A model generated the notes under the pieces. The model was given only the letters and a program-made list of their open reading frames with translations, ran no database searches and had not been told where the DNA came from. This document shows positions 17,801-63,042 of a DNA stretch of 64,000 nt, piece by piece; position 1 is the first letter of the stretch; each line of letters opens with the position of its first letter. The DNA lies in contig CM120640.1 of the NCBI GenBank assembly GCA_051362555.1, forward strand, positions 5,270,001 to 5,334,000, written 5' to 3'. The translations under genes were made by a program, and so were the position numbers. The DNA comes from Lingula anatina. Its lineage: Eukaryota; Animalia; Brachiopoda.

Positions 17801-20800
17801 ATTTTTCATCGTCTGGTATTGGAAATTGGTTAGATTTAGTTTTATTAAATGCATTGATTGACTGTTTGCTCTGACAGTTGATAGAGTAGTGAGATTAGAC
17901 TGATTTTGAAAGGTTTTGATTTGAAAGAGGAGGGTTGTTGGTAGATTAATACTGACAGGTAGTTGGAGAAAGTGGGTGGAGCCAGTAAGGGGATAGTTTG
18001 ACAGATGTCCCTTTAACAGTAGTGGAAAAGAAAGTAGAAAATATCCTAATACAAATGGAAAGATTCAAACATGCAGGTAGAAGAGAAAAGAGCAAGATGG
18101 TCCAGAGGAAAAAGGGTGGCCTTGAAAATTGAAAGAAGAGTTCAGTCACAGGTGTCAAAAAATCTTACATCAAAATTAGTCTGAACATGGGCTCCTATAA
18201 GTTTTTACTGACAAGGTTGCCTTTCTAAAGAGTCTTTAGCTTTTTTTTTTTTTTTTTTCTAAAAATTAAGCCCAAAGATCAAATTTTTCTGGTACCTTGG
18301 CAGGTTAAGTCATGCATTAAAACTTGAGGCTACTGACAGAGTCAACACAACATTGTTTCATTGATAGAGCACCTATAACATGGTGTGTGTGAGCTAGATT
18401 GATTGACCAAAAAATGCTTCATTATTTTTTACCTGAAGTTTTATTTGACATCAGTTTGCATGTGTTACATACATGTGGATAGTACCTTAAATATCTTCAT
18501 GATAGTAACTTTTACCCTGTAAAAAAAATTAACTTGTTACTGTTTTTAAATGTAGTCAAGTATTAACTGGATGATTTTTTCCATTTGTTGTTGAAAAGGG
18601 TCAACAAATTATGTAGTTTGCCACAGATTTATTTTCTCCATGGTAACGTAATTATTACTATGTGGCTACAGCTAACATTTAGAAGCCTGGTAGGATTTCT
18701 GTTAAGATTTAACCACCAGCAGGTTGATCTTACAAAGTGGAATATCTCAGTTTAGACATACTAGTTTAACCTTAAAAGTGTGTGTGTGGGTGTTTGACTG
18801 GGTGGGTGGTTGAAACGGAACCTGGGGAGAGTTTTCACAAAAGAACTGAAGTTGACAGTTAACCTTCATTTAAAGACAAAGTTTTTTCAGATAATTTGAC
18901 CTAGTAGTTATTCACCAAAAACAGAATTGTAGAGCAAATGACAGATCCATAGCTAGCAATTATAGAAGGGGGGTTCTTTTTCTGAAAAAGTGGACCTTTT
19001 ACCATGAAACCTTTTTGTACCTAGATAAAATGTTACCCACAGGGGACCTTTTCTCGGCAAAAAAAGGTAGGGGGTCGAAAGACCCCCCAAACCCACCTAG
19101 TTATGGGCCAGAATGATTAGTCTTCTATAGTTGACTTCTATCCTTTCATCCTGTATGGAGATAGACCAGAGAATTGTCATAAAGTGAAGACCAGCTTTCA
19201 ACTTAACTTCTTTTCTGAAACTGGATCTGGAACCAGAGTGAGTGGTGAGAAGGTATCCCTGCTGGCAATAGGAAATATTTTTTCATAAAGGTATGGAAAA
19301 AGAGAAACCCCAAAATCTAAGGAGGGCCCCTGAACCTGTATATTGACTAGAGTTATTTTCCTTTTATGCAGTTCTGTGATAAGAAATTACGAAATGAAGA
19401 ATTTGTCTGTGTGCATTCATGTGTCTTTATTAGCCTATATCTCATATATCAAAAAGGAAGACAAGCAGACTGTTTGCCCGAATTTTATGAAACTGGAACC
19501 TGTGTTGTCAGTTTCATAATGTAAATGCTGAAGTTATTCATTGGTTCAGATCTAGAATTGAAGGGTAAGAGATTATCCCTGGTAATTTTCAGAAATATTT
19601 TTCTCTGTAATACTTTAAGTATGCGCCAAAATTAAACCCCCAAAAATCTAAGGAGACTCCCTGAACCTGTATCTTGACTCCAATTGTTTTTCTTCATTTG
19701 CAATTTTGTGAGAAGGAACAATGAAATGATGAATTTCTCTATCTGGATGCATTTATGTGTCTTTATTAACCTCTTTCTCATGTATCAAAAAGGAAGACAA
19801 CCAGACTGTTTGCCCAATTTTCTTGAAACTGAAACCTGTATTGTCAGTTTAATGTTAAATGTTATGGTTATTCATTGGTTCAGAAATTGGAATAATTTCA
19901 AGAATAGATTTCAACCTATGGATATTGCTGTGCATTAATTTATACTTAGTTTTAGGGAAGTCCAAATGAAATTTCACCATATCAAAAGCATGTAAACTGG
20001 ATATGTCATGTAAAGTGATAAAAAAATTAGTGCACTGATTAAATAGGATGATCGCAAATTAATGTTAATAATATAAAAATGGCAAAATTTCTTGTATTCA
20101 TAAAAATTAAAGATAATCATGCAAATCTTTGTATTGCTTTCAGTAGTGTTTTCATCACCTAAAACATTTGTTTTCATTTCATAAAACAAACACATACCTG
20201 TCCTGTTCTTATTATTTAAAACATTGCCAGCCAGCATAAAACAAGTGGTTCTAGATGTACATAATCCTTGAGCATATTCTTGCCCTGCTCTATCACAAAA
20301 CACACGGCTAATATTTAATATATGTCATGGGGGTCATTAGATTGTGCCCCACCACCCCAGGGGCTTCACCCTAGACTCTGCCCCATCCATAGAGGTCCAG
20401 TTAGCTGCACCTGTACAAATACTGTCCTGTGGCTTAATATTGGAACTTTGTGTTAAAACATTAATAGTACTTTGACCAGACACTCAGGCAGGGTATATCT
20501 ATAGGCCTATAGACATAACTGGCAGCCATCACTTGATACTCTGTTATACAACATGCTTGACACATTTATAGTAATCATTAGTATAATTTGTGGTATTAAT
20601 TCCTAGAATGACACTATTGAATATGGTCAGTGTGATGTTATTTTCAGTACCATGCTTAGTTCATCTGCGCTGAAGATATTAGAAAAAGGCTAGGTACATG
20701 TAGCAGGAAATGCTTCTTTTTTACTAGATTTTTTTAATTTATAGTGCTATGTTTTTTCCTTTACCTTATCATCCACAATCATTGGTGTTATTTTTCTGGA

Positions 20801-43220: not shown

Positions 43221-44729
43221 CGGATGGAAAATGCATTGGGCATTGATTTGGTAAGTGGCAAGTTTTACAATTGAATTGTGTAGAATTCGTTATTTTAGTG
43301 TAGAAAATTTACTTCCTTGTGCCTGCAAATGCCATCATTAAATGCAGACCAGAGAGTTCATTTCAGGGGAGGAGACTTGTTTCCCAGCACATTGTAATGG
43401 ATTATCCAGGTTAGCTGATTTTAAACCATAATCTCATTACGAACGCCCCTTGTAACACCAAGGGTGCCCACCCAGCCCAACCACACACTACAGACACTAT
43501 AGACACTATAGACTATAATACAATACGATAAGAAACCGTATGTTTGCCTGCTTGTTACTTGTGCGCAGGTTTTCCTGAGAACCAGAACATTTCCTGTCCC
43601 GCCGTGGCCTGCAAGGTGCAAATTTTTTTGCGGATGTGTTGCAAAAGTTCACCATGAAGTACTTTAGGATAGGATTACGGTGATTATCTTATGAGATATT
43701 GAAGTTTGAATTTTTTTACCCTAAATTAGTACGTAGTGGCATTAGTTCATTCTCTTATGACGTTATTTACTTACGACTTTTAAAAAGAGATCGATAAACC
43801 ACATGCGTACTAAAAATAAAAATGCAAAAGAATACAATAATTGTCAATTATATCGTTATATTTTAAGATCACCCGACAAATACCACTTTACAAACTTCGA
43901 TCGCTCAAAACACATCTCTTTGCAAATTCATCTCAGATGCAGGTGTCGCTATAGAAAACTTCTTGTTTTGTGTTTGATGCATCCTGTCTCTTAATTGCAA
44001 GGAAGATCGCACGTCCTTCTTGAACTCTTTAAATCAATCGTTCCTGTTACTGCCATAAATGGACCACTTTAGTCATCCTTAGACTGTCGTTTTACGAGTG
44101 TAATCTCAGAGCACCTGATAATTGAACTCCAGGTGTAAGCAGGAGGTTCGTGACGTCGGATATAATAATTATCGTGATTCTCCTCGACATCACATATATA
44201 TCTCAATATATATACACATTACGACACTGATACTAGGGGAGTCAGACTGAGAGCACGAAGACTGTCTGACGAACGGCTGAGACTGACCACTTCCACTAAC
44301 CATAATCGTAAAAGTAAGTGTAGTTTTACTGAGAAATTAATATTTAGACAAGCAGAATGTTTCCGAAATCAATTTAAATGAAAATGGTCCTATGGCGAGC
44401 GAAATATAGAGACTCAATAATAATTTGACATTAACTGCATTATTATATAATTTACTTTAAAGGACAGGTATATTTTAAATCAGCATTATCGAAATGTCGT
44501 TTCATTTTATTTGATACAAAATCGTTGGAAATAAAATTACATATTTACTAAGAGACATCGACGGCTTATAAATGATACGATGGACCAATCACTTTTTTTC
44601 ATGTAAACGCATAATAAACTTTGAAGGGAATTTTGAAACAAACATCAAATTCACAAAAAAATCATTTCACTCTATAGTACTTCTAACTATTTACATATTC
44701 TTAATATATTCTTATCTTTTTTACTCAGG

Positions 44730-45000
44730 ATGATTAAAACACGACTGTATGCAGTAGCCACGCTGACGGTAACACTTTCTTTGGTAATGGCCGGACAAAT
44801 GGACGGGGAAGCGACCGCCATGTCGTGGGAAGACCCACCATCAGAAAAGATATTCAAACCAGAATCTGTTGTCGAGTATTCGATGTTGACCGATCCCGAC
44901 CTTAGTGAAAGACAGAGATTCGCTACTTTTTGGAACAAACTCAGAGGAACACAATCTGGCTTCAGTGAAGGAAAAGTTCATGGACTGTATAATATGCAAG
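44730..45000 (+). CDS. First coding exon of an unidentified secreted protein (signal peptide plus ~70 aa); downstream exons not identified
   Basis: Acceptor tttttactcag lies just before the ATG. MIKTRLYAVATLTVTLSLVMAG looks like a signal peptide, composition is coding-like, and a phase-1 donor CAAG|gtaaag follows at 45001. An upstream non-coding exon ends at a gtaagt donor at about 44314, with TATA-like and CRE-like (TGACGTC) sites at 44150-44215. Confidence 0.6.
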
Positions 45001-47256
45001 GTAAAGTTTTTTTTTTTGTTTTTTTTTACATTAACACTGACCACTTTTACATATGATCAATATGATTTATGCATTTTGCATATTGATGTATGATATGTAT
45101 TTTTATTTGGAGGTTGGAATCTTAGTAGAAGTTGAAAATTTCCCGATTTCGTATGTGATCAAATTTTAATTTCTATTTCTAGTAAAATTAATAAAATTTG
45201 CTGTATTAGTTTTGAGACTCAATGTTTTATTTGTGCTGAAATGATAATGTAGTTTCCTTCACAATGTAAATTTGATATTCGGTTCCAATTTTCGGAATTT
45301 ATAAAAAATAATAATAATCAATACGAAGAAAACAAGCAGTCTTAAAACGCTTATTATTATTTTTTTTTTCATAGTTCCATTGAGGTACGAAATAATGAAC
45401 ACCATAAAAAGAGCTCGTCCCACCAAGGGACGCCTGTGTCCACGTGGGCGGGCCCTCATTGAGTGTTACGACGCTTCATTTGCCGTGTGGATTCACCAGC
45501 TGATGAAACAAAATGGGAGACGATAACCTACTAAAAACTTACTTCTTTCCTGTTCGCCAACAGAAAGACTATCTTTTAAAAAGCGTAGATCTTTGTTTTT
45601 CTTTTCTTTTTGTCTAAAAACGTTAACTGTTAAGTGAGGACTCATTTTCTATTGATAATAGGTATTTATAATTCGTTATATTTCCTGGGGTATTTCCATT
45701 AATTAAATTAACTGGGCCAATCAGTATAGGTCTGACATTTCATCTGAAGCCTATCGACTTCCAATTGATGGATGGTTTAATAATGCCTTTATCATAAGCC
45801 GGTATTCGAGAGGTTTACTTCCTGTCAGGCACATCGGTGACGTTTTGGATTATAAAATATCAGAGGCCCTAGGTTATTTAAACGGCAGAAATGTAGATAT
45901 TAATAGTTTATTTTTCGATGCCATGTTCATGATGTTTAATCAACTGAACATTATTGATTGGGAATATTTCGATGTTTAAGTTTAATTTTATGTCACTGCA
46001 ATCTTTAAGTATTCTGTAAAGCGTAATGCGTTGAGTTTAATTTTATGTCACTCCAATCTCTAAGTATTCTGTCGAGCGGTCTGTTTGTACTTTATCTTAG
46101 GTGTATTTCACCCTACGTGCACTTTTATTTTATGTATACAGTTTACCTTTCTATATTCCCTAGTATCGATAGAAGCGTGTATACATCCCATTCGCCTGGA
46201 AACTGGACTATTGTTAATTGATTTTTTATTATCATCATCAACAACAACAATCCAGTGTGAATATTTTCACTAAGTATTGTCAATATGGAAATATATATAC
46301 CAAAGTCCAGTGTTCTTATCAATCATTCAGATTTTCCATTTTGATTACCTGGTCAATTATTCAAGGCGGAGTCGCAAAGTCTTATTCACTTTAGGCAAAA
46401 ATAAAAGCGGCAAATATCAATCAACTGAAATTTCGAGTTCTTATTGATGTCTATAATGGACCTCTAACTAATTCATATGTTTTGATTGCAGGTAAAAGGT
46501 GCTGCCATCACCGCGTTCTGTTTTTTTTTTTTTTTTTTTTAAACCCCTATTCCACACCGACTACGTATTCTAAGAACTGCCAGATATTTAAAGAATTAAG
46601 AAATGTGAGTAATAGTGGAATATATGGAGATATTGATTTTTCTAATGAAGGCAATATTATTAAAATTGCTGACATGATGAAAAAATTGTAAGAAAAACGG
46701 GCAAAAAGTATCATTTTAATTGCAACTTTCTTCTTTCTAATTAAAGACACTCAAAATTCTATGTGAATTTTTACATCAAAAATCCATCCTTGTGCCATCT
46801 TTTTCAACCACTGTTGTTTCAAACATTCAGTCTTTGGTTTGTTGAATTACTATGAAAAGGGAGAAAGTTTTAAAAAGATTTCATACAATGTTTTATCTTA
46901 GCTACATCTCTAAATGCCTAAATATCATTTTCCTAGATCTACATAAATATTGGCCAAGATTCACATTGATCAGCATTTCTTGTGGGGTGAATCATGACCA
47001 TACAAGTTTTGGTGTATAAGAATGAAATCTTATGTCTTATGTTAGATGTACAGGCCAATCCACTTTTCTTTAATTATTATCGTTATAACCTTTTTGGTTA
47101 GCAGCTATTGAAGCAATAGTGAATACGAACAGTCTAAAATGCAGGGTTGTGTTTAGCTAAATAGGCCGTGCCAATTAAGTGACTGTTATGTCTTCACACG
47201 ATCTGTTACCATGTGATTTTACAGCCCCCAAAAATGAATTATGCAAGCAAGGTAGG

Positions 47257-47263
47257 TATAAAA
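47257..47263 (+). promoter_or_regulatory. TATA box of M13 variable first exon A
   Basis: GGTATAAAA lies 85 nt upstream of the ATG and is conserved in the paralogous copy, while surrounding bases have diverged. An Inr-like TCATT follows about 30 nt downstream. Confidence 0.6.
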
Positions 47264-47341
47264 CACCATCTAGAAACTCTGAGCTTCATTTTAAATGATT
47301 TTACTCTTCGAACAGTGCCATCATTCAAGGTGGTAGAAAAC

Positions 47342-48079
47342 ATGGGAGGAGTTGGGGAACCGTTTAAAAACGACGATGAACCACCAGGAAATCCAATTAA
47401 GTTTATTTATTATTCAATGAAAAGGAGAGAAATAATTTTAATCGGTGTTTTGGCGAGTGTACTCGTGGTCAGCATTGCTTTGGCTGCATTGGTTGGGGTT
47501 TACGCCCACCAAGGGGGAGGAAATGGTAACAGCCCTGGTACGGCCGCCCAGACATCCCCGGGGGTTAACATCCCAAGTCATCCAGATATTTGCTTGGAGC
47601 AAGGATGTCTTGATACGGCTGCCTATATGCTGTCCAACATGAACTTGTCCGTGAAACCGTGTGACGATTTCTATTCTTACGCCTGCAGCCGGTGGCCTCT
47701 CTGGCATCCGCTTCATTCCGACTCCCAGAGAACCATATTCTGGAAAATTTATGACGAGAATCAGAAAAAACTGCAAGACATATTAGAACAACCAATAAAG
47801 AGAAATGTAGATTGGGCGTCAGAAAAGAAAGCAAAAAACTTGTTCAGCTCCTGCATTAACACCTACATTAAGGAACGAAACTACGCAAAACCATTCATCC
47901 AAAATGTTGTTATGAGCTCGGACGGTATTGGTGGTTGGTACGTTTTCAACACTAATATTCAAAATACGTGGAACTTCCAAAACGCATTGGAAAAAACGCA
48001 TGTAGATTTTTGGACAGATGCTTTATTTACGTATTACATAGGTTCGGATTGGTATGATTCAAGCAAGAATGTACTCCAG
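47342..48079 (+). CDS. M13 peptidase (neprilysin/ECE-like) first exon A: cytoplasmic tail, type II TM anchor and N-terminal ectodomain
   Basis: 246 codons containing TM IILIGVLASVLVVSIALAALVGVY, ICLEQGC, MNLSVKPCDDFYSYAC and KAKNLFSSC. Ends VLQ|gtgaga (phase 0). Confidence 0.88.
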
Positions 48080-49773
48080 GTGAGACACAATAGATGTAAT
48101 ATTTAAGAACATTTTCAGGAGTATAGGGAGTGGAGAAATGAGTAAGTTAGAAAATGCATACGCATTTCGTTTTATTTTATCTTTGGGTTCAGGTGTTGCA
48201 TTCTAATCCGTGTTTATCGAAAATCAAGTTAATATAGGTGGAAATCCTGTTAGAAGTGCCCATCGATCAATTATCTCAACATATTTATTTATTGTTTGCC
48301 TCTTTATTAATTTATTTTATCACTTCTTTTGGCATCACAAGTTACTGTTTGTCGGAACTAGATATGAATACTTTCTCTGTCATTATATTCTGTACAGTAG
48401 GCATAGTAAACAAAATTGCCGTTTGTTACTTGTGATTGCGATAGCCTAATAGTGCTTGTGGATAAGTGATTCCGATTGCCGAATTTATGACTCAAACTGT
48501 GAATTCATGTTTTGACTGTAAAAATCCTGAACGCGAGCATCTTGTTATTAACTGCGAACCACAAGTCTCCTCACCTGCCTATTTGGCACGTTCCGTATGT
48601 GCTGGAAATTATCGAGAGCGCATTGCTCTGGTATTTATAGGAATAGGAGATTAAAGAAATAAGTTTAATTCATTTTGGTGCTTTGATTTTTTAATAATAG
48701 CGTTAATTCAGAATATATATTTGTAAGTTGGTGAAAGCATTCAACATGGAACAAATATTTGCAAGTTGGTGGAAACACTCGTTGAAAGGATTTTTTTACT
48801 TATGTCTTACCAGTATTTACCACTTGTAGTCCAGGCCTGAGTGAGCACAGCAAGCAATATCTCTTTCGCTTCCAAACACTTTTCAGTAACGCACCAATCA
48901 CTTTACTGCGCCTTGTTATAGACGTCAAGAATTTCATCGTTTTCGTTACTGAAATGAATACCTGTGCATCTCCGGATACACTCGCGTGCAGTTCTTCTTA
49001 TCTGCTGCCAAACTGAAATAGTTTGCGTCGAGAACAAAAAATGTACGTAAACAGCGAGAGACCCAGATGAAAGCTGTGTAAAACCTCACAATTTGTTTGC
49101 AGTTAGTAATGCGATGCTTGCTCTTGTATATTTGCAGTTGGACCATAAAATCGCGGTGTAAGTCACGAATTCGGAAAATATAAACACTAATCCGCGGCTG
49201 CAATTCAAAAACGGCAATTGTTGGTTACAAGGCTTGAATAAAGACACACCAAATTTTAATTTCCAAGAACTATCCACTTATGTTCAGTGAAGCATCAATC
49301 AATGCATTCAAAATGATATTACCACTAGTACATTAAAGTTTCGACTCATTTTGGGGTCGGTCGGCCAATGTCCTAGATAAAATCCTCTTTATCAAATTAA
49401 CACGATTCAGGGACATAGCTATTCATTTCATATAATTTTGATTCATATAAATTAATATATAAATTTGTTCAATTATTTTTTCAGCAAGGACGCTGACAAA
49501 ACTCCTTTCATCCGGGGCTCAAACACACACAGTAGAAACGGCTTTCTAACAAAAGACAAATTTTGATAAGCTTTTGCCCAGATTTTATCTCAAAATCCAT
49601 TGAAAACTAATAAAGTAGACATTGAAGCAAATAGGGAATATGAACAGTCTTAAATGCAGAATTATGTTGTAGCTGTATAGGTCGTGTCAATTAAGTGGCT
49701 GTTATGTCCTCACACGATCTGATATCATGTGATTTTAGAGCCCCCAATAAATGAATTATGCAGGCAAGGTAGG

Positions 49774-49780
49774 TATAAAA
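49774..49780 (+). promoter_or_regulatory. TATA box of M13 variable first exon B
   Basis: GGTATAAAA lies 86 nt upstream of ATG 49860 and is paralogous to 47257. Confidence 0.6.
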
Positions 49781-49859
49781 CACCATCTAGAATATGCAAA
49801 CTTCATTGTACATGATTTTACTCTTCAAGCAGTCACATCAGTCACGGACGTAGAAAAAA

Positions 49860-50597
49860 ATGGGAGGGGTTGGTGAACCGTTTAAAAACGACGATGAACC
49901 ATCAGGAAATCCAATTAAGTTTATTTATTATTCAATGAAAAGGAGAGAAATAATTTTAATCGGTGTTTTGGCGAGTGTACTCGTGGTCAGCATTGCTTTG
50001 GCTGCATTGGTTGGGGTTTACGCCCACCAAGGGGGAGGAAATGGTAACAGCCCTGGTACGGCCGCCCAGACATCCCCGGGGGTTAACATCCCAAGTCATC
50101 CAGATATTTGCTTGGAGCAAGGATGTCTTGATACGGCTGCCTATATGCTGTCCAACATGAACTTGTCCGTGAAACCGTGTGACGATTTCTTTTCTTACGC
50201 CTGCAGCCGGTGGCCTCTCTGGCATCCGCTTCATTCCTACTCCCAGAGAACCATATTGTGGAACATATATGACCAGAACCAGAAAAAACTGCAAGACATA
50301 TTAGAACAACCAATAAAGAGGACTGTAGATTGGGCGTCGGAAAAGAAAGCTAAAAACTTGTTCAGTTCCTGCATTGACACGTATGTTAGAGAACGAAACT
50401 ACGCACAACCGTTCATCCAAAATGTTGTTATGAGCTCGAACGGTCTCGGCGGTTGGTACGTTTTCGATACTAATATCCAAAATACGTGGAACTTTCAAAA
50501 CGCATTGGAAAAAACACATGTGGATTTTTGGACAAACGCTTTATTTACATATTACATAGGTTCGGATTGGTATGATTCAAGCAAGAATGTACTCCAG
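49860..50597 (+). CDS. M13 peptidase first exon B (recent paralog of exon A)
   Basis: 246 codons with 15 amino-acid differences from A by manual count. The ORF is intact and has the same VLQ|gtgaga donor. The duplicated unit spans roughly 47105-48210 versus 49620-50720. Confidence 0.88.
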
Positions 50598-52881
50598 GTG
50601 AGACACAATAGATGTAATATTTAAGAATATTTTCATGAATATAGAGAGTTGAGAAATGAAAAAGTTACAAATTGCATGCGTATTTCGATCTATTTTACGG
50701 GTGTGGCATTCTAATCCGTGATTATCTTACACCCTTCCGGTAGGAAAGGGTGGACATTTCGTGAGAAGTGTCCGTCAGTTAGTTGTTTAAAAAATTTATC
50801 TGTATTGGTGGCCTCTATTTTGCGACAAACGTCACAGTATCATCGAGATGTTGAGTTAGATCTATAGCTATTTATACTTGGTAGATAAAACGCTCCAAAC
50901 TTAAGATGCAACTTCCAAAACACTACTTACTGATACTCAGCGAAGCCTTTTTCTATGGGACCATTCAGAATGAGAAGAGCCGAGTGCTAGCTGGTCCACG
51001 GCCTAAATATGGCGGACCTACATGATAGGAAGACCGCTTAATCCTGTAATGGTCTCTCCGCCTCTTTCACGCCTCCCCACGCGTCGTCCCTGCAGGGGCA
51101 CAGTAATTAAATCTCGTCTCAATTCGACCGGTCTAGAGACGATAGATACCTACCCTCTGTAATAATCTCTTAAGATATTATTACAAAAAAAGACTTTTAG
51201 GAAAAAAAGGGGGGGTACTAACTATGAATGTCGGAACGGATTCATTAACAATTTGTTAATATGGGGAAAGTGTCGTTTACCTCAGGAAATATACTTTTTG
51301 GAGAAGATGAACGGCTGTAATCACTTAAACATGTGCCAAATTATTGTTTTAATGAATTTACAAAACTGTACCACTTGAGTAAAGCACTGCTGCTTTATCA
51401 ACGTTCTTTTCTCTCTTTTTTATAAGTTAAATCAAATTCAGAAACTTTCCCAAGGTTGGTACTGCCATCCTCTAGACCCTGTTCTACAGTGCACATGCAT
51501 ATACATGGATAGTACAACCGAAAGAATGTATCCCTGCATAGAACCTGCCGCATAAAGACAATAGTGATTATGGTAATTATGTTCATTAGTGTTGACCTCC
51601 TGATCAGTGATTAGTTTCAACCCTCGATGCAATAAGCTGTACTGCACATACAGAGGTACATATACTTCAATTGCTCGACGTAAATTCCGTATGATACATA
51701 AATTGTAATAATGGTAATTATGGTCATTTGCGTGTTTTGTAAGCTTCAACCCTCGACGGTCTGACTGCAGTTTTGTATAGCATACGAGGCTATTATATAT
51801 GTATCACCTTTAGCCGCATTCTCTGATGAGTGAGGCATTGAAATATTGGGCTGCTAATACTTGTTGTTGGAAGATCCTTCCACAATTAATTTGAGTGCAG
51901 AACACAACAGTTGAAATTCTTTACTTAACCAAACTTCTACTTGTACTTTTTGATTTTAATTCGGTGCTTATTGAAAATCAGTCTGGTATAGTGAGGACCT
52001 GATTAGGAACCCCGGCCATGGATGTGTGACTTAAAGTATCTCTCTTTTCCTAGGCTAACTGGTTTTTCCTACACTTTTGGCGGTTGCTCTTGGAGGTGGA
52101 TTTGTTCATTTGGTATTTTCTTAATGATATCCTTCTGCCCACCAGTGGCAGTTAATGAGAGTGCTATACTATATCTCATGGTATATTAGCCTTGTTGGTA
52201 TTTGCCGCTCGGCGACTTGTTAAGCCCATGCTTTTACCCCCCCCCCCCCTCCACACACACACACACACACACACACAAACGATTTTTGCCTGAAATAACT
52301 GTTAAATCCTTCTACTGAATCTCATAGAAAAAAATTACTGAAATATTTCTCCGTGTTAACTCCCTCATTTTATCACGCAGGTAGTAAAATCAATTCAACA
52401 CAAGGAGATCATATAGATTACGCGAGAAAGACCAGGCTGGTATTATCAATGGTTTATAACCGACAGAAGACACCAAGTTAATTATCAACTAGAAGGCACT
52501 TCTTATTGATCTATTACAATGATTGCAAACATGTTACATTCTATAAATCAATAACTGATAAGCTGTAGCGGGAATAACAGCAAAATTATCACAAGGTCTA
52601 CTACTACCCGGTACATGTGCACAGTATACGCCCCCTTCACGATGACCATCTTTAGTATGCATGGTATGGTTTGCGACGACTACGGGTCGTATCCGCCCCT
52701 TCTGATAAAGGTGCTGAGAACAGCACCTTGAGAAAATCGGTGTATTTATGGTTGAGATGTGCTGGATTAAGTATTTAATTTTTTTGTATATTTCACAAGG
52801 AGAAGGGATAAAAACTGACTTGTATTTGAGGGTTATTTTTTCTTCCCGCCAAAACTGAGAGCACTGAACCCCCTTTTTAGT

Positions 52882-52912
<31 letters not shown>

Positions 52913-54200
52913 GGGGAGGGGTGTTTCTTTTGGTCGCACGAATCATTATTAAATTTTTTGCTTGTAGCATTACATTGTCATGCTGAAAAAAAACTACATC
53001 CTCTCTCACACCAGTTTCACAAGTTAAGTGTGCCTGTTAAATAGCTAATGAAATGAAAACTTGTTTTTTTAATACCATATCAGTGTAGAACGCTGCAAGA
53101 GGGCGGGGGTTATTATTAAGTTTTCTTCTTATAGCAATGGACCTATTGCAATTTCTGAACATTTAAGATTTGCCACTGGGATATGTGCATTGAGCAGCAT
53201 CAGTATTTGTTTCACTAAGTTTCCTATTCGAGATGTTAGAAATGTTAATGTGTATATGGTAGATATAAGAGGTGAAGAACGCCCTGGTACGGTATGATAA
53301 GATAAGGCGGAGTACCGTGCCTTATGGTGCCCAGTCCCTGCTGCACTTTTAATATCAGAACATAACTTTAACTGATGATATTCTTACTTTAATGTTGCGT
53401 CTCCTTTAAATAGTACTATTTAACTGTCTGTAATGCGTTCGGTCGCACTCAAAACGCAGTGCACCTGAAAGTTGATCACCCCCTAGCTGCTCGAGGAGGC
53501 GTGACATCAATTAATCTGAGTGGAGTTGGATCGATCTACATGTAAAACGATAGTTTCATGGGGAACGCGCCCTTAGACGCGATGGAATTTTACTTGGTTT
53601 TCGTCATATTTCTAATAGGGCGTTTTTCCTTAGTGAAGTATGTTCAATAAAAATGATACTTGCATTTAAAAACTTAAGATTTCTTTGTCATGTCTATGGG
53701 CTAAATGTATTGGACAAATCTATCAGTATCAGATATGAGTGCACAAACTGTTTGAAAGACAAGGTCGCAGTTGGGGTTAGAGGGTGTTGGGGGGGGGGGG
53801 GATGGACGATTATCAGTCATGCCTCCGCTTAAAATATTATGATTTACGAAAGCGTTTATTGAAAACAAAATAAAACATTACAGCATTTATATAAATAAAA
53901 TAAAAATTTGACATATAAATAAAGATAAGTTACTATCTGTGTCTCAGTGGTAAATAATTTTGAGGACAAAATATAGATAGTCCAGGCGCAAGTAGATTTA
54001 ATGAGTTTACAAAAGAGATAAGAGTCACCCTTGTCCTACGCTTTGTTCGTCCAACCTTTGCTCTAATCAAAGGTGGAAAAACGCCCCCAATATACTTGAA
54101 CAACCATCATCATCAGCAGGAGGACGCTTCATCGTGGTGGAGTGCGGGTGTTAATGCTTTTCCATAATTTCGTTTTGGGAAAAAAATTCTCAAAGCGAAG

Positions 54201-55129
54201 ATGGCTAATTCAGATAAAGTGGATATTGTAAACAGCGTCAACGACGTAGAAAAAGTGATTCCTAGCAGTAACTTCGGCATGACTTTTGGAGACAACAAAT
54301 TGTCGACCAGGGAGACAATTCTCGGTGTCGTGGCAGTGGTGTTCTTTCTAATTGCCATTGTAGTTATAGCATTATTTGCCGCTGGTGTCGGCAATCCGCC
54401 TCCTGCTCCAGATTTATGCTTGACTAAAGGATGTATGCGGGAGGCGTCAAGGATGATTAATTTTATGAATGCCTCTGTTAATCCCTGTGATGACTTCCAT
54501 ACCTTTGCATGTGGCAATTTTCCTAACTTTGCACAAATTACGAGCGGTAATAATGAAAGGACGGTACTACGCGACGCCGCCACTTTTAACGAAGGCAAAC
54601 TGCGAAGGGTATTAGGCGCACCTCTTCAGCGAAATGTGGATTGGTCATATGAAAGAAAAGCTAAGGAACTTTTTTCTTCTTGCATGAACGGATACGAAAA
54701 TCAAAAAGCGGGCGGAAAGCCAATGATAGATTTGGTAAACCAGATAGGCCCGTGGTATGTGTTTAACACGATGGGGATATCAAATTGGGACTTCCAAAAT
54801 GCGCTGCAGAAGGTTCACGTGGACTTTTGGATCAACGCCCTCTTTTCGTACACCGTCGCCCCCGATGAGTTGGACACCAGCAAGAGAGTGGTTGAGGTCG
54901 GTCATATATCCTCCATCACGCTTACATATAACTATTGGGCATGTTGATGCGGGAAGCCTTTCCAAAGTCTCCGAAGTGTGCATAAGTCGCTTAAAGTCTG
55001 AAAAAGTCTTAAAGAATGCAAGAAGGGGGGCGGGGTGGGGTGGGGTGGGGTGGGGTGGGATGTGCCTATACCAAAGTCTGTGCAGGGAAGACAGCATAAC
55101 AGCATATCTGTTTGTATGATTATTCATTA

Positions 55130-55160
<31 letters not shown>

Positions 55161-58100
55161 TTATTTGGAAAATGGGCGTACATATGCTCCATCAAAGCAC
55201 TGCTGATATTGCATTAAGGAGTTATCAGTTTTTCTGTATTCAAAGATATCATTTTAAAAGTCTTTCTTCCCCCATTGCGGTTAGAACCGCCGCCCACAAT
55301 TTCAAACCCTGTACTCAATAACTCATAAATTTGCTGACCGTAGTCCTATAATACGGTAAAAATACAATATCTTAATATTATTATTCTATGAAATTCAACC
55401 AAACGATGGCTACAAATAATAGTATTACATAAAGTATATTTAAATCCACACCAAAAACATTTTTGGTTCTAAATGTTCTGTAAAAATATGCATTTCTTGT
55501 GATGATTTAATGAAAATCAGTTGGGTCTGTTGGGATAGGCTGTAAGTGGTGCCAAAGCTAAATGCTATATATATGAATTTCAGAAGTGGAACGTGGAACG
55601 AGGGGCAGCATATTTTTTGCCCCCCCCCCCCTTGCAAACCCCTCCTGGAATCGTTATCAGCTTAAGTGTCACACAGCATTCAATGTGTTCGTGTATAATA
55701 AGGTTTTGAAATATATCTAGATAACTGCAATTTGTATATATAGTATCATCCTTTTTTTTAGATTGACTATAGTGGTCTTGGCATGTACTGGGGATACTAC
55801 ATTTCTACATCTTCATATGCAGCTAAGGTGAGAGTTCTTCCAGCAGAGGTCATTGAAAATGGGAGGATATAAATGTGTGCGTACGCGCTCGTGTGTGTGC
55901 GTGTGTATTTGTGCGTATGCTTGCGTGAGCGTGCGTGTGTGTGTGTATTAAATGTGAAAGCTAGTAGTATCTTAGATTTTGGTTAAGTTTATGCGTCAAA
56001 ATTAAGCAGTCCTTGTGTGTTATCAGCACTGTAGTTTAGACAAACCATGTCTTCAATCAGTTACTTGTAAAATACAGTATATACATGCAATACAAACATA
56101 AACGCATTACAGAAAACAAGAAACGACAGAGGATTGTGTATATTAATTGAGTTATATGCGATGTCCTATTAGTACGGGTTTAAAGTTGAATTGAATGAAA
56201 AAAAAGGAATTTAGGATTTGCATGTTCATAATAAATGTGGATTAGGGATGGTCGTCGATGTTTGAGGACAGATAATTTGTTGACATATCTATATAGGGTA
56301 GAGAGAGTTATCACTTCAACGCACTTATTAACAATAAGCATTCAATCAAGGAAACACATTTACATTTGCTATATTTTTACACATACTAAGAGGGAAAATA
56401 AACACACAGAGAGAGAGAGAGAGAGAGATGTTTCTAAAATCCATTCCCTCGTTACTTAGGTACAAGATGCATACAAGGGTTTCATGAGAACAGTTGCCGG
56501 CTACATGGTGAGAGATAATGCTATGAACCCCACAGACAACACAGTGAAGATCAACATCGAACAGTTTGTTAACGACGCTTATCAATTTGAGTACCAGTTA
56601 GCCAATGTAAGTACGGGCTGTGCGTTATCATAAAAAATTAACCAAATTTGATAATTTGAAAATAGTGATAATATGGTTGTAGTTATAATATAAAGAATGT
56701 ATCGTAAGATCCAACCCCGTTGCCAGGCCCCTTTGGCAAGGTATAAGCCAATTAAGTGGTATTTGTAATATTGAACAACCAAGACATCCTTGAAGTAAAG
56801 GATAGTTTTACAAAACAATGAAAAAAGAAAAGATCGTGGAGTGATTTTTTCCGACATATTTTGAAATTTCGTTTATTTTCCAATGGCATGTCCATGAACA
56901 GAAGCAAGGTCAAAGGGAGATGAGGGGGGGGGGGGCACGTGATCCTGAGCCTACCATCCACATAGATAGCTACACTTTTGTTTACCTGCACCTTTCTTCT
57001 AATTTGCAGGTAACAGCCTATACCCAGCCTTCCCCAGACCCTCACGCTCCCGGAAACAGGAAGAAAATCTCAGAACTCAATACAGTAGCTGACCAGGTAA
57101 GACTTTCTGTCGTGAAGAAATTGTAACGAGTCAAGGGACCAATAAAGGCAAAAGATATAACACAGGTTCAAACCAAACGAGAGAGAGAGGGAGAGAGAGA
57201 GAGGGGGGGGGGGGGGGAGAGCGAGCCCTAGAAAATGTGATGCTGCTTCACCTGTTTCTTTTACAATTTATAATTTATCTTTTGTCATACTTACAGGTGA
57301 ACTGGGTCAGTTTCTTCCAGTACATGTTTGGTAGTAATAATGTGAACGGAGACACGTATGTCGTGCTCTTAGAGGCTGACTACCTCCAGAAGATGAGCAA
57401 TATGATTAAAAACTGGGACCCTAATTCGAAGACAAGGTAGGGTATTGCCTAAGAATACCGTATCATTTATGAAACGCATTCATGTATCATTTTTACGTAC
57501 ATAACGACATAAATTTTACATGGGCAAAGTAAAGACATAATTTTGGTGCAAAATAAGCTTGCCAGTTATAAATTTTCAAAAAGTCTTACTTCTTAACCTC
57601 TGACAGCACCTCACATAAGCACAGTAACAGACGCTCCCCCCGTGTAGCTCGCATCGCAAGATAGGATTCTCAATATTAAAAAATAATGATTGAAATAATG
57701 AGCAAAGTAATCAGGTACAACCCTTAGGAGAATAGCCGTCTGTTATCAAAATAATGGCGTCGCACATGGTGACAATTCATCACAAGGAATGTATTAGACT
57801 AATTCCTAGATCTGTATGACGTGTGTCGAATGTTCATTTGCGTCATAGACTATAGCTGAGTATACGTGGATGTTGTCTCGAAAAAAAGAAAAAGCCAAAC
57901 AGAAAGCAAGTGCAAGTAGTGTCATCGCACTCGACCTCTATATCAAGTTATTAAATCCATAAATGTTCTTAAAAATACATGTATGCATGTTTTTTTATTT
58001 TTAAGAAAACTTTGGGTAGAAACAAGAAAATAAGGTGCTATGCCATTATAACTTCTCGTGAAAATGCTAATTTTGAACACCTATCCGAAAAGCCAAAGCA

Positions 58101-61100
58101 GAGCTGAAGCTATATTTTCTCAGAATTTGAAATAAAAAATCCTTCAAATCTCTCAAGTTTATCTTCAATGCTCCACATATTGGTCTTATGAATTTTAATT
58201 ACCCAATTTGCATTTCTTCTGAAAAACAAATAATTTTAACTATAATTCCAAATCTGAATATTATTTCAGAGTGCTGAATAATTACCTGATGTGGCGCCTG
58301 ATGCAGGCATATGCCCAGGACTTGTCTTGGGAATACGTCCATGCCAATAGAGAGTTCTACGTAGCTAGGACAGGCAGGGCTCAGTTCTTGGGGACATATC
58401 GCTTCTGTTTTAACTACATGAAGAGTAAGATGCCCGATGCTCTCGGGGCACTGTTCGTCCAAGACCATTTTGCTGATAATGCCAAAAGCGAGGTATGGTT
58501 GTTTTGATGATTTTAACTTTTCAGTTGTTGTAAGAGATCTCTGTTTGTTCTGCACATATTTGTCCACCTTTTTATGCCATGTGTAGTATTGCTCATGCCT
58601 CCTTCGATGCCGTGCATAATCTCCCCTTAACTGCCAAACAAACTTGCTGTGTTAGTTGATATTTTCTAGCAGGTTCTGTCCGTCAGTAAGCAAATCACAA
58701 TGTATCATTTTCTGGCACGAGCACTGTTAAGGGGTTAAAATTGAATAACATCTTTCGTTTATTTTTCACATATTTATCACTTTTGATGTGTAAAATTTTT
58801 AAAATATACCTGTGAATTATTTTAATGGAATTTTTCACAAATACCTCCAAAACTTAATTTCAAGGAATTTACTTTCTAAATTTCTCACAGTGCAATTTTA
58901 ACAAAGGAGTAACGTGCTTATTTTTACGGTTCTACTGAAATGATAAATATCTTTCCTCACATAATCTAGGTTGACGCTATAGTCTCTCGACTGAAGCAAA
59001 CCATTGCGACTCGCATTCAGCAGGCGACATGGATGGATGCATCGACCAAAAAATATGCAAGTTCGAAGGTACAATTTATTATTTCAATGTGGACAGGGTT
59101 GTGCCTCCCCGTCTATGGGAAAGAATCTATGGGAAAGGGGTCAAAACCACTGTGTGAAAGTTATCTCTGTAAATGAAAGTAGTATCACGTATTTTATTAT
59201 TATTATTTATTGTGGTATTTTGTTATTATTATTTATTTATGGTGCAGGCAGCAGCGCTTGAAATTTGTTAGGGAATTGAAGGATCTGATTTTCCAAAGTA
59301 AGAAAGAGCGTATTTGTTCATGAATATACATAAACAAAGACATTTATACATAAACTGAGAGGGAAATAATTTATTTGCGCCATGAATTTGTCTTTTGTTT
59401 TACAGATGCAATCAGTGGTAGACAAAATTGCCTATGACACGGCTGCTGTCAGTCACGACTACCTGGACAGGAAGTATGATTCTGTGAGTAGCATATCTTT
59501 TTTTCTTCTTTTCAAAAGTGACATATTTACAAACTGATCGTGCGTTCTGATGTTTTAGTACGTACGGGCAGTTAAAACAAACTCGTTATTTTTCAGTTGA
59601 AAATCAATGCAACAAACTACTTCGCAAACATCCTGAGCATGAACGCTTTTGAGAAAAATGACTGGACAAACCAGTTGGTAAGAGGGCAAGACAAGACTAA
59701 ATGGCGCTATAACACCTATGACGTGGTAGCCCACATGTACAATCCTTGGAACGAGATCATCGTCCCGGCAGGGTTGTTTCAGTTCCCTATCTATACCAGA
59801 ATTATGCCCCAGCACGCGCGCTTTGGCGCCATGGGTTCCATTGTCGCACACGAACTAATGCACGGCATCGATGAGTATGGCAAGTATACAGTCTACTAGT
59901 ATCTTTGGATTGGTATTTGGTTTATATTGTTCTCGTACATTTCATGTCCTCATGCCGAATGGTAATAATATTGCTATCCTGTATACGTTGAAAATAATTT
60001 GAAATGTTGTCTTTCCTAAAAAAAATAATAATAACGTTCTTAAAGGGACTGTTTATCTCGCTGTGCTGGGCACTTTTTCTTTAAAAACATCTTAAAATAA
60101 TTACCATTACTGAAAATATCACGACTTTCACTTTTTACACCCCTTTCCCACCAGGTGGCTATTTCCTGAAGAATGGTACTGTATTTGACTGGTGGAGTAA
60201 TAAAACTACAGTAGATTATTTGAAAAGCAAACGCTGCGTGTCCGACTACTATACTAATATGACTGTGGGCTTCAGAATACCTAACAGCGAGGGCACGGTG
60301 GAAACGGTGAGAAAAACAAAGTTTGTTTTTAAATTTTTAGTAATGTATATATACGGTAATATCTGCAACATATTTAGTTAAAACCCAAGTTTGATTTTTC
60401 AGTTCTAGTTTTGAATTCTTTTTTTTTTTTTTTTTCAGAGGAAAGTTCCAATTAATGCCAGACGGTATGCATTTGAAGGGCTGACGGAAACAGCGGGAGT
60501 GCGTATGGCCTACTACGTAAGTGGACAGACAACACTTGTTCTTTACCGGTTAAATCAAGCTGATTTTACTTTCCATTATTATCTTTACTTGCCCCAAGGT
60601 TATGTTTTTGTCTTAATTGGTTTATTAGTTGACACTTTAATCCAAATTCTTTTGGTCAGGATTTTGATAAATTTTTCCAGATAGGTCAGACATGTTTTTA
60701 TTACTTATTATCAATTAGATTGTTGTGGTCTTGTGTGAATTGAAGTGCAACTAGTTAATGGTGATTTGAACAGAGCTGCCTTTATAGAAATCTTCGTTCT
60801 CTGAACGTTTTTATAGTTATTCAGGAAATATCTTGTTTTTTTTTGTTATAAAGAATTTAGTAAATTTCAAATGACGAAGTTATGTAAGAGCACCCTACCG
60901 ACGCATAAATCTGAAATGTCAGAAGAGTAGACCAGTCATGAAATCCTTTGCTTATTATGATGGGCGCTTAGAATTTGACCTGATAAATGTTGTCTAGTCC
61001 TATTTATTCATTACTTTTGTTTCGTTTTAGGCGTACAAAGATTGGGTCAGTCAGAATGGAGCAGAGAAGCAAGTCCCAGGACTGAATAAAAATAACGAGC

Positions 61101-61855
61101 AGGCCTTCTTCATCAGTTACGCACAGGTAAATGGAGAATCGGTGCTGCTCGTAAGATTTTTAAAAAGGAAACGCTCTGTACCTTTTGCATTAACATTGTT
61201 GTTATAATTCCAGTTTCTGTTGTACATGTGTATATGTAGCTGGAAGGTGTGTCGGTGGGAGAAGGAAATTCTTCATTTAATTTCCTAAATAAATTGGTAC
61301 GGCAAATAATACATTATTCCCTTTCTTTTAGACAAACTGTTTCAACAGGAATGAGGGATACGGATATTCCCAGGCAATGCAGGGCAGTTATCCAGAGAGT
61401 TTCAAGTGAGTTTTAACAAACAAACAAATGTACATGTATTACAACACTGTGGTGACGGTGCGATTTTTAATTACAGCTATTACATGAAGAACAGATAAAA
61501 GCACTTTAATTGCCACCTTCTTTGTTTGAATTTTTTGAGATTGTATACATGTATATGACGCGCATTATGTTCATTCATGGTTTCCAATGAGAGTTTAAGA
61601 TTAAATATTGTAGTCATTTGAATGATTTTAGTATATCAGCCATTATTGTAAGGCGCCTTGAGATAGAATGTAAGGCGCCATATAAGAATCTTATTATTAT
61701 ATTATTATATTAGATGTGACAGTAATTTCTGACACGAATCCCTTGTTATTTGCAGAGTAAACACGGCTTTAGCACAGTTGGATGAGTTCGTGCAGGCATT
61801 TAGCTGTCCAGCAGGCTCCACAATGAATGCAGATAAAAAGTGCAACGTTTATTAA
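54201..61855 (+). CDS. M13 zinc metallopeptidase-family protein (neprilysin/ECE-like): first exon C plus 13 downstream exons
   Basis: Exons are 54201-54896, 55762-55827, 56460-56606, 57010-57096, 57297-57436, 58270-58492, 58970-59068, 59406-59483, 59597-59879, 60155-60306, 60439-60516, 61031-61126, 61332-61405 and 61756-61855, in frame. Motifs are PCDDFHTFACG, LNNYLMWR, WMD, NEIIVPAG, HELMH, DWW, EQAFFISYAQ and FSCPAGSTMNADKKCNVY*. Confidence 0.92.
61640..61712 (+). mobile_element. Short 3'-end remnant of an L2-like LINE or SINE
   Basis: TGTAAGGCGCCTTGAG...AAGGCGCCATATAAG followed by an (ATT)n tail resembles typical L2-clade 3' termini. Confidence 0.45.
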
Positions 61856-63042
61856 GAGGAAAATTTCCATTCCTAAGCCACGAACGCCACAGTTTCGTAC
61901 CGCCACATCGTATCATAAGACATAGCTTGAGTGAGCCTGCGAAAATGGCTAATTGACGCGAAAGGAGACGGGGAAAAGTGCATTTTTCTACCATGTTGAT
62001 TTCAGATGATTCTAATTCACATAGACCATGACCCTATTGTACTTTTCTCGTCTGTAAAGTTAGATGCTTCGCTAATAACATTCATCTAAAAAAATAACAG
62101 AGGACAATCATATCTTCGTTAGATGGTAAACCGTTATCCATGAGTACAAAAATCATTGTGCATAAAGTGAAATCTCTCCATTGTAAGTTCATTACTTATC
62201 CAGATTAACAAAGGTCGGGTTCGCAGAGCGACAATAATTAATTTACTTATCTTTTTAATCAATTTTAGTATTATCAGTTTATTTATTTGTTTGATATTTA
62301 TCATCCATTTTACTGAGATTAAGATATATATCTGTAATTTTAATTTGTTTTAAGGATCATTTTTTGTTTCAGTTAAGAGCATTTTTAAAAATCTTGTTGA
62401 TGAGGCGTTGATTGATAAATTGTTGAGTTTATAAATATATAGGTATTCATACTTAAAATTTGTTTATACAAACTTGAAATAAAATGACTTAACTAATGAT
62501 TACATGCTTCCTTTAATTATTACAAATGAATGATTGGGAAAGAGGTTGAAACAAAGCTTAAGTAAGGTTGTACATTTTAGAAGTTATATAATAACGTGGT
62601 TTGGTTGCGACATTTGTTAATTAACAGGAAAGAGAGAGCGTAAGACAGCAAGCGCACACATCTCTCACATCAGCCTTTGCCCTTGTACCCGCGGATCCCA
62701 AGAGGCACACTGTAGGTCTGTCTGTCTATGTACTACAGTGTACAGGTCGACATAGAACAGTATTTTCAGCTATCAAACACATATAATGTCTGGGCAAAGT
62801 ACAAGTTGTGCATTAAAGAACAATTCGGGGAAAACGTTTGTCAAAGTTCCTACAACTATGGTAGTATATCCTTTTTTGCGCATGTAAATTTCAATCAAGT
62901 ATATTGTCTGATAAAAAAAAAAAAATTCAGGATTTGAGCGTGCGCTATCCCAGATAACTTCGTCTTGGACAGGTTGTTCGCCTAGTTCAGTCTAGTAACT
63001 CGTATTATTGACTCTGCTACCATGAGCTCCAATCATGTTGTT

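What the first reader, a model, noticed from the sequence alone, without database searches (positions are those of the whole stretch)
47105..61855. Neprilysin-like locus with three alternative, promoter-bearing variable first exons and one shared constant region (UGT1A/protocadherin-like layout)
Seen in the sequence: three paralogous ~0.7-kb exons (A 47342-48079, B 49860-50597, C 54201-54896) each encode start codon, cytoplasmic tail, TM anchor and N-terminal ectodomain. All are intact and end at the homologous codon with a phase-0 GT donor (VLQ|, VLQ|, VVE|). I found no copy of exon 2 (IDYSGLG) or any later exon between them, and only one set of 13 downstream exons exists. A and B each keep a TATAAAA about 85 nt upstream. 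Established knowledge: variable first exons spliced to common exons is how UGT1A and clustered protocadherins diversify. Inference: promoter choice yields three membrane-anchored M13 isoforms sharing one zinc-binding domain. I do not recall this layout being described for M13 peptidases, but have not searched.
Basis: partly seen in the sequence, partly recalled or inferred. Interest (0 to 1): 0.85.

Follow-up and report, generated by a model that had tools for sequence, protein, structure and literature searches.

The report
Swappable first exons in brachiopod neprilysin
A neprilysin-family gene of the lamp shell Lingula has three related first exons in front of one shared set of 13 exons; RNA shows the farthest one joined to the shared part, skipping the other two, so the gene likely makes up to three membrane proteins with different predicted peptide-binding pockets.

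Summary
Three intact paralogous first coding exons (A, B, C) precede one intact 13-exon M13 (neprilysin/ECE-family) region in Lingula anatina. In two spliced contig sets, A joins the shared exons and skips B and C. RefSeq annotates only C plus the shared exons. C has a weak RNA trace and no joint; B has no RNA cover but is under purifying selection against A (dN/dS 0.17). All three have a TATA/initiator-like pair upstream. Independent DNA runs support the layout. A/B and C are not one clade (AU p 0.001 and 0.015): C is the gene's own first exon, and A/B likely come from an older paralog. The swapped exon carries the equivalents of neprilysin pocket residues Phe106 and Arg110. Zinc ligands are kept, but Asn542, His711 and Arg717 are not, so catalysis is doubtful. 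The closest known layout is vertebrate GCNT2; I found no such layout in print for M13. Verdict: real, a new member of a known architecture, one of three splice forms shown.

The parts
47257..47291 (+). TATA box and initiator-like element of exon A (31 nt apart); predicted core promoter
   Evidence: motif positions; start site not measured
47342..48079 (+). First coding exon A (246 aa: cytoplasmic tail, membrane anchor, start of the M13 ectodomain); spliced to the shared exons
   Evidence: RNA contigs X9 record 24 and X8 record 17; arithmetic
47729..47752 (+). Codons 130-137 of A, aligned to neprilysin Arg102-Arg110 (S1'/S2' pocket segment)
   Evidence: alignments; residue roles from PMC4121237 and PMC7822871
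47385..47672 (+). 288-nt tract identical in A and B (copy at 49903-50190); likely gene conversion
   Evidence: 0 of 100000 permutations reach this run; synonymous-only p 1e-5
49774..49809 (+). TATA box and initiator-like element of exon B (31 nt apart); predicted core promoter
   Evidence: homologous to A's, so not independent of it
49860..50597 (+). First coding exon B (246 aa), recent duplicate of A; intact, splice to the shared exons not seen
   Evidence: no cover in X8 or X9
53914..53949 (+). TATA-like and initiator-like pair upstream of C (32 nt apart); predicted core promoter
54201..54896 (+). First coding exon C (232 aa), the exon in the RefSeq model; sister to the first exon of the paralog XP_013399075.1
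   Evidence: one 154-nt RNA contig at depth 4.6
55762..55827 (+). Shared exon 2 (66 nt), the common acceptor
   Evidence: 66-nt interval in X9 record 24 and bin depth in X8
56460..56606 (+). Shared exon 3
57010..57096 (+). Shared exon 4
57297..57436 (+). Shared exon 5
58270..58492 (+). Shared exon 6
58970..59068 (+). Shared exon 7
59406..59483 (+). Shared exon 8
59597..59879 (+). Shared exon 9, holding the HExxH zinc motif (59849-59863); followed by a GC-AG intron 59880-60154
60155..60306 (+). Shared exon 10
60439..60516 (+). Shared exon 11, holding the third zinc ligand Glu (60475-60477)
61031..61126 (+). Shared exon 12
61332..61405 (+). Shared exon 13
61756..61855 (+). Shared exon 14, coding part to the stop; RNA contigs continue to at least 62600, first AATAAA at 62478

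Best explanation
This is one Lingula M13 gene in which exon A is spliced to the 13 shared exons across B and C, and in which B and C are likely alternative first exons, each predicted to have its own promoter, giving up to three membrane-anchored isoforms. SHOWN: the layout; the A-to-shared-exon splice; selection keeping A and B intact; C grouping with another Lingula paralog and not with A/B. INFERRED, expression: transcription starts at one of three TATA/initiator promoters, and the donor nearest the cap joins exon 2. Downstream first exons have no acceptor of their own and are removed with the intron. INFERRED, origin: the family forms tandem gene arrays and has an old, large first exon ending in phase 0. 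An upstream paralog likely lost its own exons 2-14 and its first exon was captured by the neighbour's exon 2; it later duplicated into A and B. INFERRED, function: the swapped exon supplies the tail, the anchor, five of ten conserved cysteines and the S1'/S2' pocket segment. Promoter choice would therefore change where the protein is made and which peptides it binds, while the zinc site stays the same. The product is more likely a weak or altered peptidase, or a peptide-binding surface protein, than a typical neprilysin.
For: X9 record 24 holds A (47456-48077; 2 differences from A where A and B differ at 33 places) and exon 3 on one 1001-nt contig, 66 nt apart, which is the length of exon 2. 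622+66+149+84+80 = 1001. X8 record 17 fits the same join by length and bin depth (1324 against 1327 expected). The longest word shared by the two joint regions is 8 nt, so an assembly chimera is unlikely. All 10 intron lengths listed in the RNA joints match my model. C plus shared exons equals RefSeq XP_023930067.1 at 771 of 772. A vs B: dN 0.026, dS 0.153, Fisher p 3e-7, no gap in 738 nt against 18 gap columns in the aligned flanks. A TATA/initiator-like pair occurs 5 times on the + strand of 64 kb, and 3 of the 5 lie upstream of A, B and C. A+B+C as one clade is rejected (p-AU 0.001 LG+G4; 0.015 mixture model). C groups with paralog P0001 at 100/99 in the first-exon tree, as does the shared region. 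Mollusc gene models break at the same boundary. The boundary lies inside a predicted strand (229-235) of a model with pLDDT 92.6 that matches neprilysin (TM 0.78), so a first exon alone would not be a complete domain.
Against: No RNA joint from B or C was seen in 8 of 20 listed runs laid. X8 and X9 come from one study, and their kind is only a guess in the listing ('DNA?'); I read them as RNA from their intron-skipping joints. The A-to-exon-2 joint row itself fell among the 50 rows not printed. The RNA support behind the RefSeq C model could not be seen. C's donor (GTCGGT) is further from consensus than A's and B's. The promoter motif was defined after seeing A and B, and C's copy lies in AT-rich DNA 287 nt upstream with two upstream ATGs. 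The trees rest on 164 columns and 26 rows, and A+B+C+P0001 as one clade is not rejected (p 0.44). Pocket assignments come from alignments near 26% identity with a one-residue gap at the Arg102 position. None of the 20 closest relatives aligned keeps all zinc and catalytic residues.
Confidence: 0.7

Rival explanations
1. Exon A has replaced the original first exon; only A is used now, and B and C are recent, still intact relics.
For: In X8 and X9 all contig depth at the 5' end of the shared exons is accounted for by A-type contigs (bin arithmetic). No joint from B or C was seen. C has a non-consensus donor.
Against: C is free of stops and frameshifts although the A-B duplication already carries dS 0.15-0.30 and many flank indels. 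C has its own TATA/initiator-like pair and a 154-nt RNA contig inside the exon, while most intron bins are empty. B shows dN/dS 0.17 against A. RefSeq models C spliced to exon 2.
Confidence: 0.12
2. A and C are real alternative first exons, but B is a silent or redundant duplicate held intact by gene conversion from A, somewhat like the ECEL1 pseudogene copies beside human ECEL1.
For: B has no cover in X8 or X9. A 288-nt identical tract points to conversion between A and B. Human ECEL1 has neighbouring pseudogene copies from duplication and partial triplication (PMC3413121 passages); that they are 5' fragments is recalled, not seen.
Against: The unconverted 3' part (codons 111-246) has dS 0.30 and dN/dS 0.145 (p 2e-7), so B was under selection for most of its history. 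Its donor, TATA and initiator are intact.
Confidence: 0.12
3. The population is polymorphic: A joins exon 2 only on a haplotype that lacks B and C, so there is one first exon per haplotype.
For: No DNA of the X8 and X9 animals was laid. RefSeq holds a second, 533-aa model of the shared part on another scaffold. X10 lacks cover in part of the B-C spacer.
Against: DNA runs of two other studies each hold A's flank, the spacer-to-B junction and all of C (records 1, 4, 5, 9, 10, 13). X9 has RNA from both A and C.
Confidence: 0.04
4. Misassembly: complete genes were collapsed into one set of downstream exons.
For: Two RefSeq models of the shared region lie on different scaffolds, each one residue from the window. 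No contig spans the whole stretch.
Against: First exons 42% identical would not come with near-identical downstream exons. X3 record 10 (48178-49898) runs from A's intron into B with no downstream exons between. X3 contig depth is about the same over A/B, C and the shared exons (a weak measure, as the tool warns). The two RefSeq models fit two alleles.
Confidence: 0.02

Closest known systems
Vertebrate GCNT2 (IGnT) cluster
   Same: Three similar variable first exons, each with a promoter and an N-terminal membrane segment plus conserved cysteines, spliced to common exons (PMC1885805 passages).
   Different: GCNT2 is a glycosyltransferase with two constant exons, and that organisation is described as vertebrate-specific. 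Here it is an M13 protein in a brachiopod with 13 shared exons, and the variable exons are not one clade.
UGT1A / UGT2A clusters and clustered protocadherins
   Same: Tandem variable first exons and one constant region; birth-and-death evolution; gene conversion between neighbours as in protocadherins (PMC1885805 passages).
   Different: Those arrays are mostly larger (UGT2A has two). In UGTs the variable exon is roughly one domain; here the boundary cuts a predicted strand. Promoter choice is shown there and only predicted here.
Chelicerate sDscam 5' cassettes
   Same: Invertebrate case of promoter-bearing 5' variable units joined to constant exons (PMC4835542 abstract and section 11).
   Different: Cassettes have two or four exons, encode Ig domains and are numerous. 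Downstream cassettes can also splice there; that was not tested here.
Neprilysin, ECE-1, ECEL1 and neprilysin-like (Nepl) proteins, family M13
   Same: Type II anchor, ten cysteines, HExxH plus Glu, same predicted fold. ECE-1 has four isoforms (PMC2259306 passage) and fly Nep4 has two (PMC8223033 passage).
   Different: ECE-1 isoforms differ only in the short cytoplasmic tail, from non-paralogous exons (recalled), and Nep4 switches between membrane and secreted forms. Neither swaps about 160 ectodomain residues for a paralogous copy. NAFY, ENIAD, His711 and Arg717 are altered here.
RefSeq XP_023930067.1 and XP_013388474.1 (Lingula anatina)
   Same: Same gene: 771 of 772 residues (C form) and 532 of 533 (shared part only).
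   Different: No full-length A or B form was found in the protein collection, although A is the form seen in RNA.

Membership tests
Variable-first-exon / constant-exon clusters (GCNT2, UGT1A, Pcdh type) | Two or more paralogous first coding exons in tandem, same phase | tested here: met
Variable-first-exon / constant-exon clusters (GCNT2, UGT1A, Pcdh type) | One set of downstream exons only | tested here: met
   (window only; no whole genome held)
Variable-first-exon / constant-exon clusters (GCNT2, UGT1A, Pcdh type) | An upstream variable exon splices to the constant region, skipping its paralogs | tested here: met
   A to exon 2/3 in X9 record 24 and X8 record 17
Variable-first-exon / constant-exon clusters (GCNT2, UGT1A, Pcdh type) | At least two different variable exons are spliced to the constant region in RNA | tested here: inconclusive
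   A shown; C only by RefSeq model and a 154-nt contig without a joint; B not seen
Variable-first-exon / constant-exon clusters (GCNT2, UGT1A, Pcdh type) | Each variable exon has its own active promoter | tested here: inconclusive
   TATA/initiator-like pairs before all three; contigs cannot show starts, and raw reads were too few
Variable-first-exon / constant-exon clusters (GCNT2, UGT1A, Pcdh type) | Tissue- or cell-specific choice of variable exon | not testable with these tools
   run tissues are not given and both read-laying runs were used
Peptidase family M13 (sequence family) | Peptidase_M13_N and Peptidase_M13 domains, type II anchor, conserved cysteines, neprilysin fold | tested here: met
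Active neprilysin-type peptidase (four-motif rule of PMC8223033) | HExxH | tested here: met
Active neprilysin-type peptidase (four-motif rule of PMC8223033) | ENIAD(xGG) motif | tested here: not met
   the ligand Glu is kept but the motif reads EGLTE
Active neprilysin-type peptidase (four-motif rule of PMC8223033) | NAY/FY substrate-binding motif (Asn542), His711, Arg717 | tested here: not met
   aligned positions read V-A-H-M, Ser/Tyr and Lys
Active neprilysin-type peptidase (four-motif rule of PMC8223033) | CxxW motif | tested here: inconclusive
   present in A and B, Phe in place of Trp in C
Active neprilysin-type peptidase (four-motif rule of PMC8223033) | Peptide cleavage | not testable with these tools
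   needs an enzyme assay

The most novel reading that the evidence does not exclude
A brachiopod rebuilt a GCNT2/UGT1A-type locus from the wreck of a tandem gene array. The first exon of a lost paralog was captured by its neighbour, then duplicated and tuned. Three promoters now switch the S1'/S2' pocket on one zinc core of the only member of a largely catalytically dead M13 clade (among 21 sampled) that keeps all zinc and catalytic residues, giving tissue-specific peptide recognition, possibly of the amidated-peptide-like gene next door.
Probability: 0.25. Interest if true: 0.72.

Novelty: new member of a known kind. Interest (0 to 1): 0.52.

Why it matters
Variable-first-exon enzyme clusters such as Ugt1, Gcnt2 and Ugt2a were described as vertebrate-specific (PMC1885805). 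This locus is an independent case in a brachiopod and in a family (M13) for which my searches found none. It is small enough to show how such loci begin: an old exon boundary of matching phase lets one paralog's first exon take over a neighbour's remaining exons. It offers a natural domain-swap test of how the neprilysin Phe106/Arg110 segment sets specificity. It also shows that the form seen in RNA (A) is missing from current annotation.

Tried and rejected
No whole genome is held, so other Lingula M13 loci could not be read as DNA. Four raw RNA runs (X11, X14, X17, X19; 6-30% of each read) gave next to no reads on the gene and no joints; this is no evidence on B or C. The run search listed no RNA holder on record. 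Lack of cover over B in X8 and X9 is not proof of silence. Protein searches with exon A found no hit at E 1e-20 among proteins of 432-2000 residues, which is weak evidence. The ESM Atlas did not answer. Among 147 further representatives no protein had a clean run of repeated first-exon domains before one intact constant part; P0186, P0243 and P0250 had two partial N-terminal hits and were not followed up. Earlier findings: none. My first exon boundaries were off by one base and were corrected. A strict TATAWAWR pattern missed A and B, whose eighth base is C; the looser pattern was used. The paper on ECEL1 gene structure was not held, so ECEL1's large first coding exon and 5' pseudogene copies stay recalled. 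The one held supplement of PMC9741552 lacked even GCNT2, so it says nothing about M13 genes. No complex prediction was run: two halves of one gene would pass by likeness to solved structures. Rejected: A as an orphan fragment; collapse of three full genes; simple tandem copying of C to give A/B.
Full report
WHAT IS THERE. Exons A (47342-48079), B (49860-50597) and C (54201-54896) are open from ATG to a phase-0 GT donor at the homologous codon. Each scores on Peptidase_M13_N and has one membrane segment. Thirteen downstream exons give 540 residues and a stop when one intron is read as GC-AG. The predicted isoforms are 786, 786 and 772 residues. tblastn and profile searches of the six frames found each downstream exon once and no further first exon in the window. 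The shared part matches Lingula anatina RefSeq XP_013388474.1 at 532 of 533 residues, and C plus the shared part matches XP_023930067.1 at 771 of 772. The two models lie on different scaffolds and most simply are alleles (inference). No A or B form turned up in the protein collection.

RNA. Of 20 runs listed I laid 8. Four raw RNA runs had almost no reads on the gene. Two small contig sets, X8 and X9, are listed as 'DNA?' but skip introns at splice sites and leave most intron bins empty, so I read them as RNA. All 10 intron lengths in their listed joints equal my model, out of 12 introns in the shared part. X9 record 24 carries A at record positions 1-622 and exon 3 at 689-837. The 66 letters between equal exon 2, and the rest equals exons 4 and 5, summing to its 1001 nt. 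It differs from A at 2 places in a stretch where A and B differ at 33, so it is A. X8 record 17 carries A over 691 of 803 nt, and its depth accounts for exon 2's bin (1324 observed, 1327 expected). The joint row itself was among 50 rows not printed, so for X8 the join rests on this arithmetic. The two sides share no word over 8 nt. So A is spliced to the shared exons across 7.7 kb holding B and C. B had no cover. C had one 154-nt contig at depth 4.6 in X9, with no joint. X8 and X9 are two samples of one study.

ASSEMBLY. DNA contigs of two other studies hold A's upstream flank, the spacer-to-B junction and all of C. X3 record 10 runs from A's intron into B's first codons without downstream exons. 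Contig depth in X3 is about 4-17 over A/B, 7-8 over C and 4-13 over the shared exons, with no two- or threefold step. The tool warns that this is no copy number. No contig spans the whole locus.

SELECTION AND PROMOTERS. A and B differ at 36 of 738 bases: dN 0.026, dS 0.153, ratio 0.17, Fisher p 3e-7; in codons 111-246 dS is 0.30 and the ratio 0.145. The exons have no gaps, while the aligned flanks have 18 gap columns and 11-12% mismatches. A 288-nt identical tract (0 of 100000 permutations) points to gene conversion. A TATA-like box 31-32 nt before an initiator-like element occurs 5 times on the + strand and twice on the - strand of the window; 3 of the 5 precede A, B and C. A and B are not independent, the pattern was chosen after seeing them, and about 1-3% of 350-nt windows hold it by chance. 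No pyrimidine-tract acceptor was found within 400 nt upstream of any of the three. This is motif evidence only.

ORIGIN. The closest relatives are lophotrochozoan and amphioxus proteins (Lingula, Owenia, Tubulanus, Mytilus, Haliotis, Dreissena, Biomphalaria, Tegillarca, Batillaria, Branchiostoma). Several occur as pairs on records of the same length, which suggests tandem arrays. Models in Dreissena and Mytilus, and an unnamed protein in the Haliotis cluster, begin or end at the same boundary, so the large first exon is likely ancestral in this clade. In trees of 26 rows and 164 columns, C pairs with the separate Lingula paralog P0001 (100/99), and the shared region does too. A+B+C as one clade is rejected (p-AU 0.001 and 0.015); the group was named before the test but after a first small tree. 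A+B+C+P0001 is not rejected (p 0.44). So C is the gene's own exon and A/B stem from an earlier duplication. Capture from a paralog that lost its other exons is the simplest account; an older two-exon locus that later gave rise to P0001 is not excluded. Rows used: 23 stored proteins chosen from the top hits plus two ECEL1 among them; fragments and multi-copy fusions were left out.

PROTEIN. The C isoform folds with pLDDT 92.6 and matches neprilysin (TM 0.78) and ECE-1. The exon boundary falls inside a predicted strand, and five of ten conserved cysteines lie on each side, so a first exon is likely useless alone; cross-boundary disulfides are recalled from neprilysin, not tested. The variable exon aligns with neprilysin Arg102, Phe106 and Arg110, which form the substrate pockets (PMC4121237, PMC7822871). 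The Phe106 position is Phe in A and Leu in B and C. The Arg110 position is Tyr, Tyr and Ala. Four of the 15 A/B amino-acid changes fall in residues 127-139, a post hoc remark. HExxH and the third ligand Glu are present, while 0 of the 20 closest relatives aligned keep all four residues. Asn542, His711, Arg717 and the ENIAD motif are altered. By the four-motif rule used for flies (PMC8223033) it would not be filed as an active neprilysin. It is an M13 family member whose catalysis is open.

MECHANISM. Most likely each promoter starts a transcript whose cap-proximal donor joins exon 2, while downstream first exons leave with the intron. This is shown for A only. The result would be up to three surface proteins with one zinc core and different tails and pockets, expressed in different places. 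Confidence 0.70; rivals: only A in use 0.12, B silent 0.12, haplotype polymorphism 0.04, misassembly 0.02.

COMPARISON AND NOVELTY. It works like GCNT2, whose three promoter-bearing variable exons each include the membrane segment (PMC1885805, passages). UGT1A, protocadherins and chelicerate sDscam (PMC4835542, abstract and section 11) share the plan. N-terminal swaps by duplicated exons are uncommon but known: 40 of 236 human events (PMC9741552, passages; no mention of ECE1, ECEL1 or neprilysin in the main text, gene list not seen). Searches for this layout in M13 genes or in Lingula found nothing relevant in the listings (25 of 36 rows seen, 20 of 41); subscription journals and most supplements are outside this library. 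Other papers were seen as passages (PMC4121237, PMC3413121, PMC2259306, PMC8223033) or passages plus one section (PMC7822871). Membership of the variable-exon class is met for layout and for one skipping splice, and inconclusive for a second splice and for promoters. Verdict: a real feature, a new member of a known architecture in a new family and phylum; interest 0.52.

Noticed in passing
window 44240-45750 (+): Small neighbouring gene just upstream: a non-coding exon ending 44313 (joint 44313>44729 seen in RNA), then about 140 codons with a signal-peptide-like start, a Lys-Arg site and a C-terminal peptide with two Cys ending in Gly-Arg-Arg, like an amidated peptide precursor. No Pfam hit. 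Read in X17 and X19, where the M13 gene was not.
   Followed up: partly
window 50950-51190: High-copy element with internal inverted parts between B and C; very high depth in DNA runs and present in RNA. Probably a MITE or similar repeat.
   Followed up: no
window 59880-60154: GC-AG intron, confirmed by a 275-nt RNA joint.
   Followed up: yes
window 47295-47336 and 49812-49853: A 13-codon upstream ORF just after the predicted start site is kept in both A and B and ends a few bases before the main ATG.
   Followed up: no
proteins P0001, P0002, P0004, P0115-P0133 and others: A lophotrochozoan and amphioxus M13 clade in which none of 20 sampled relatives keeps the full zinc and catalytic set, yet all keep ten cysteines: a likely pseudo-peptidase clade.
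   Followed up: partly
window 7592-10144 (-): Long single ORF for a leucine-rich-repeat protein with an fn3 domain.
   Followed up: no
window 51406-53007: DNA run X10 has little or no cover here while X3 has; possibly a structural polymorphism in the B-C spacer, though a hole in contigs proves nothing.
   Followed up: no
window 19305-19884: A tandem pair of about 250 nt, 81% identical.
   Followed up: no
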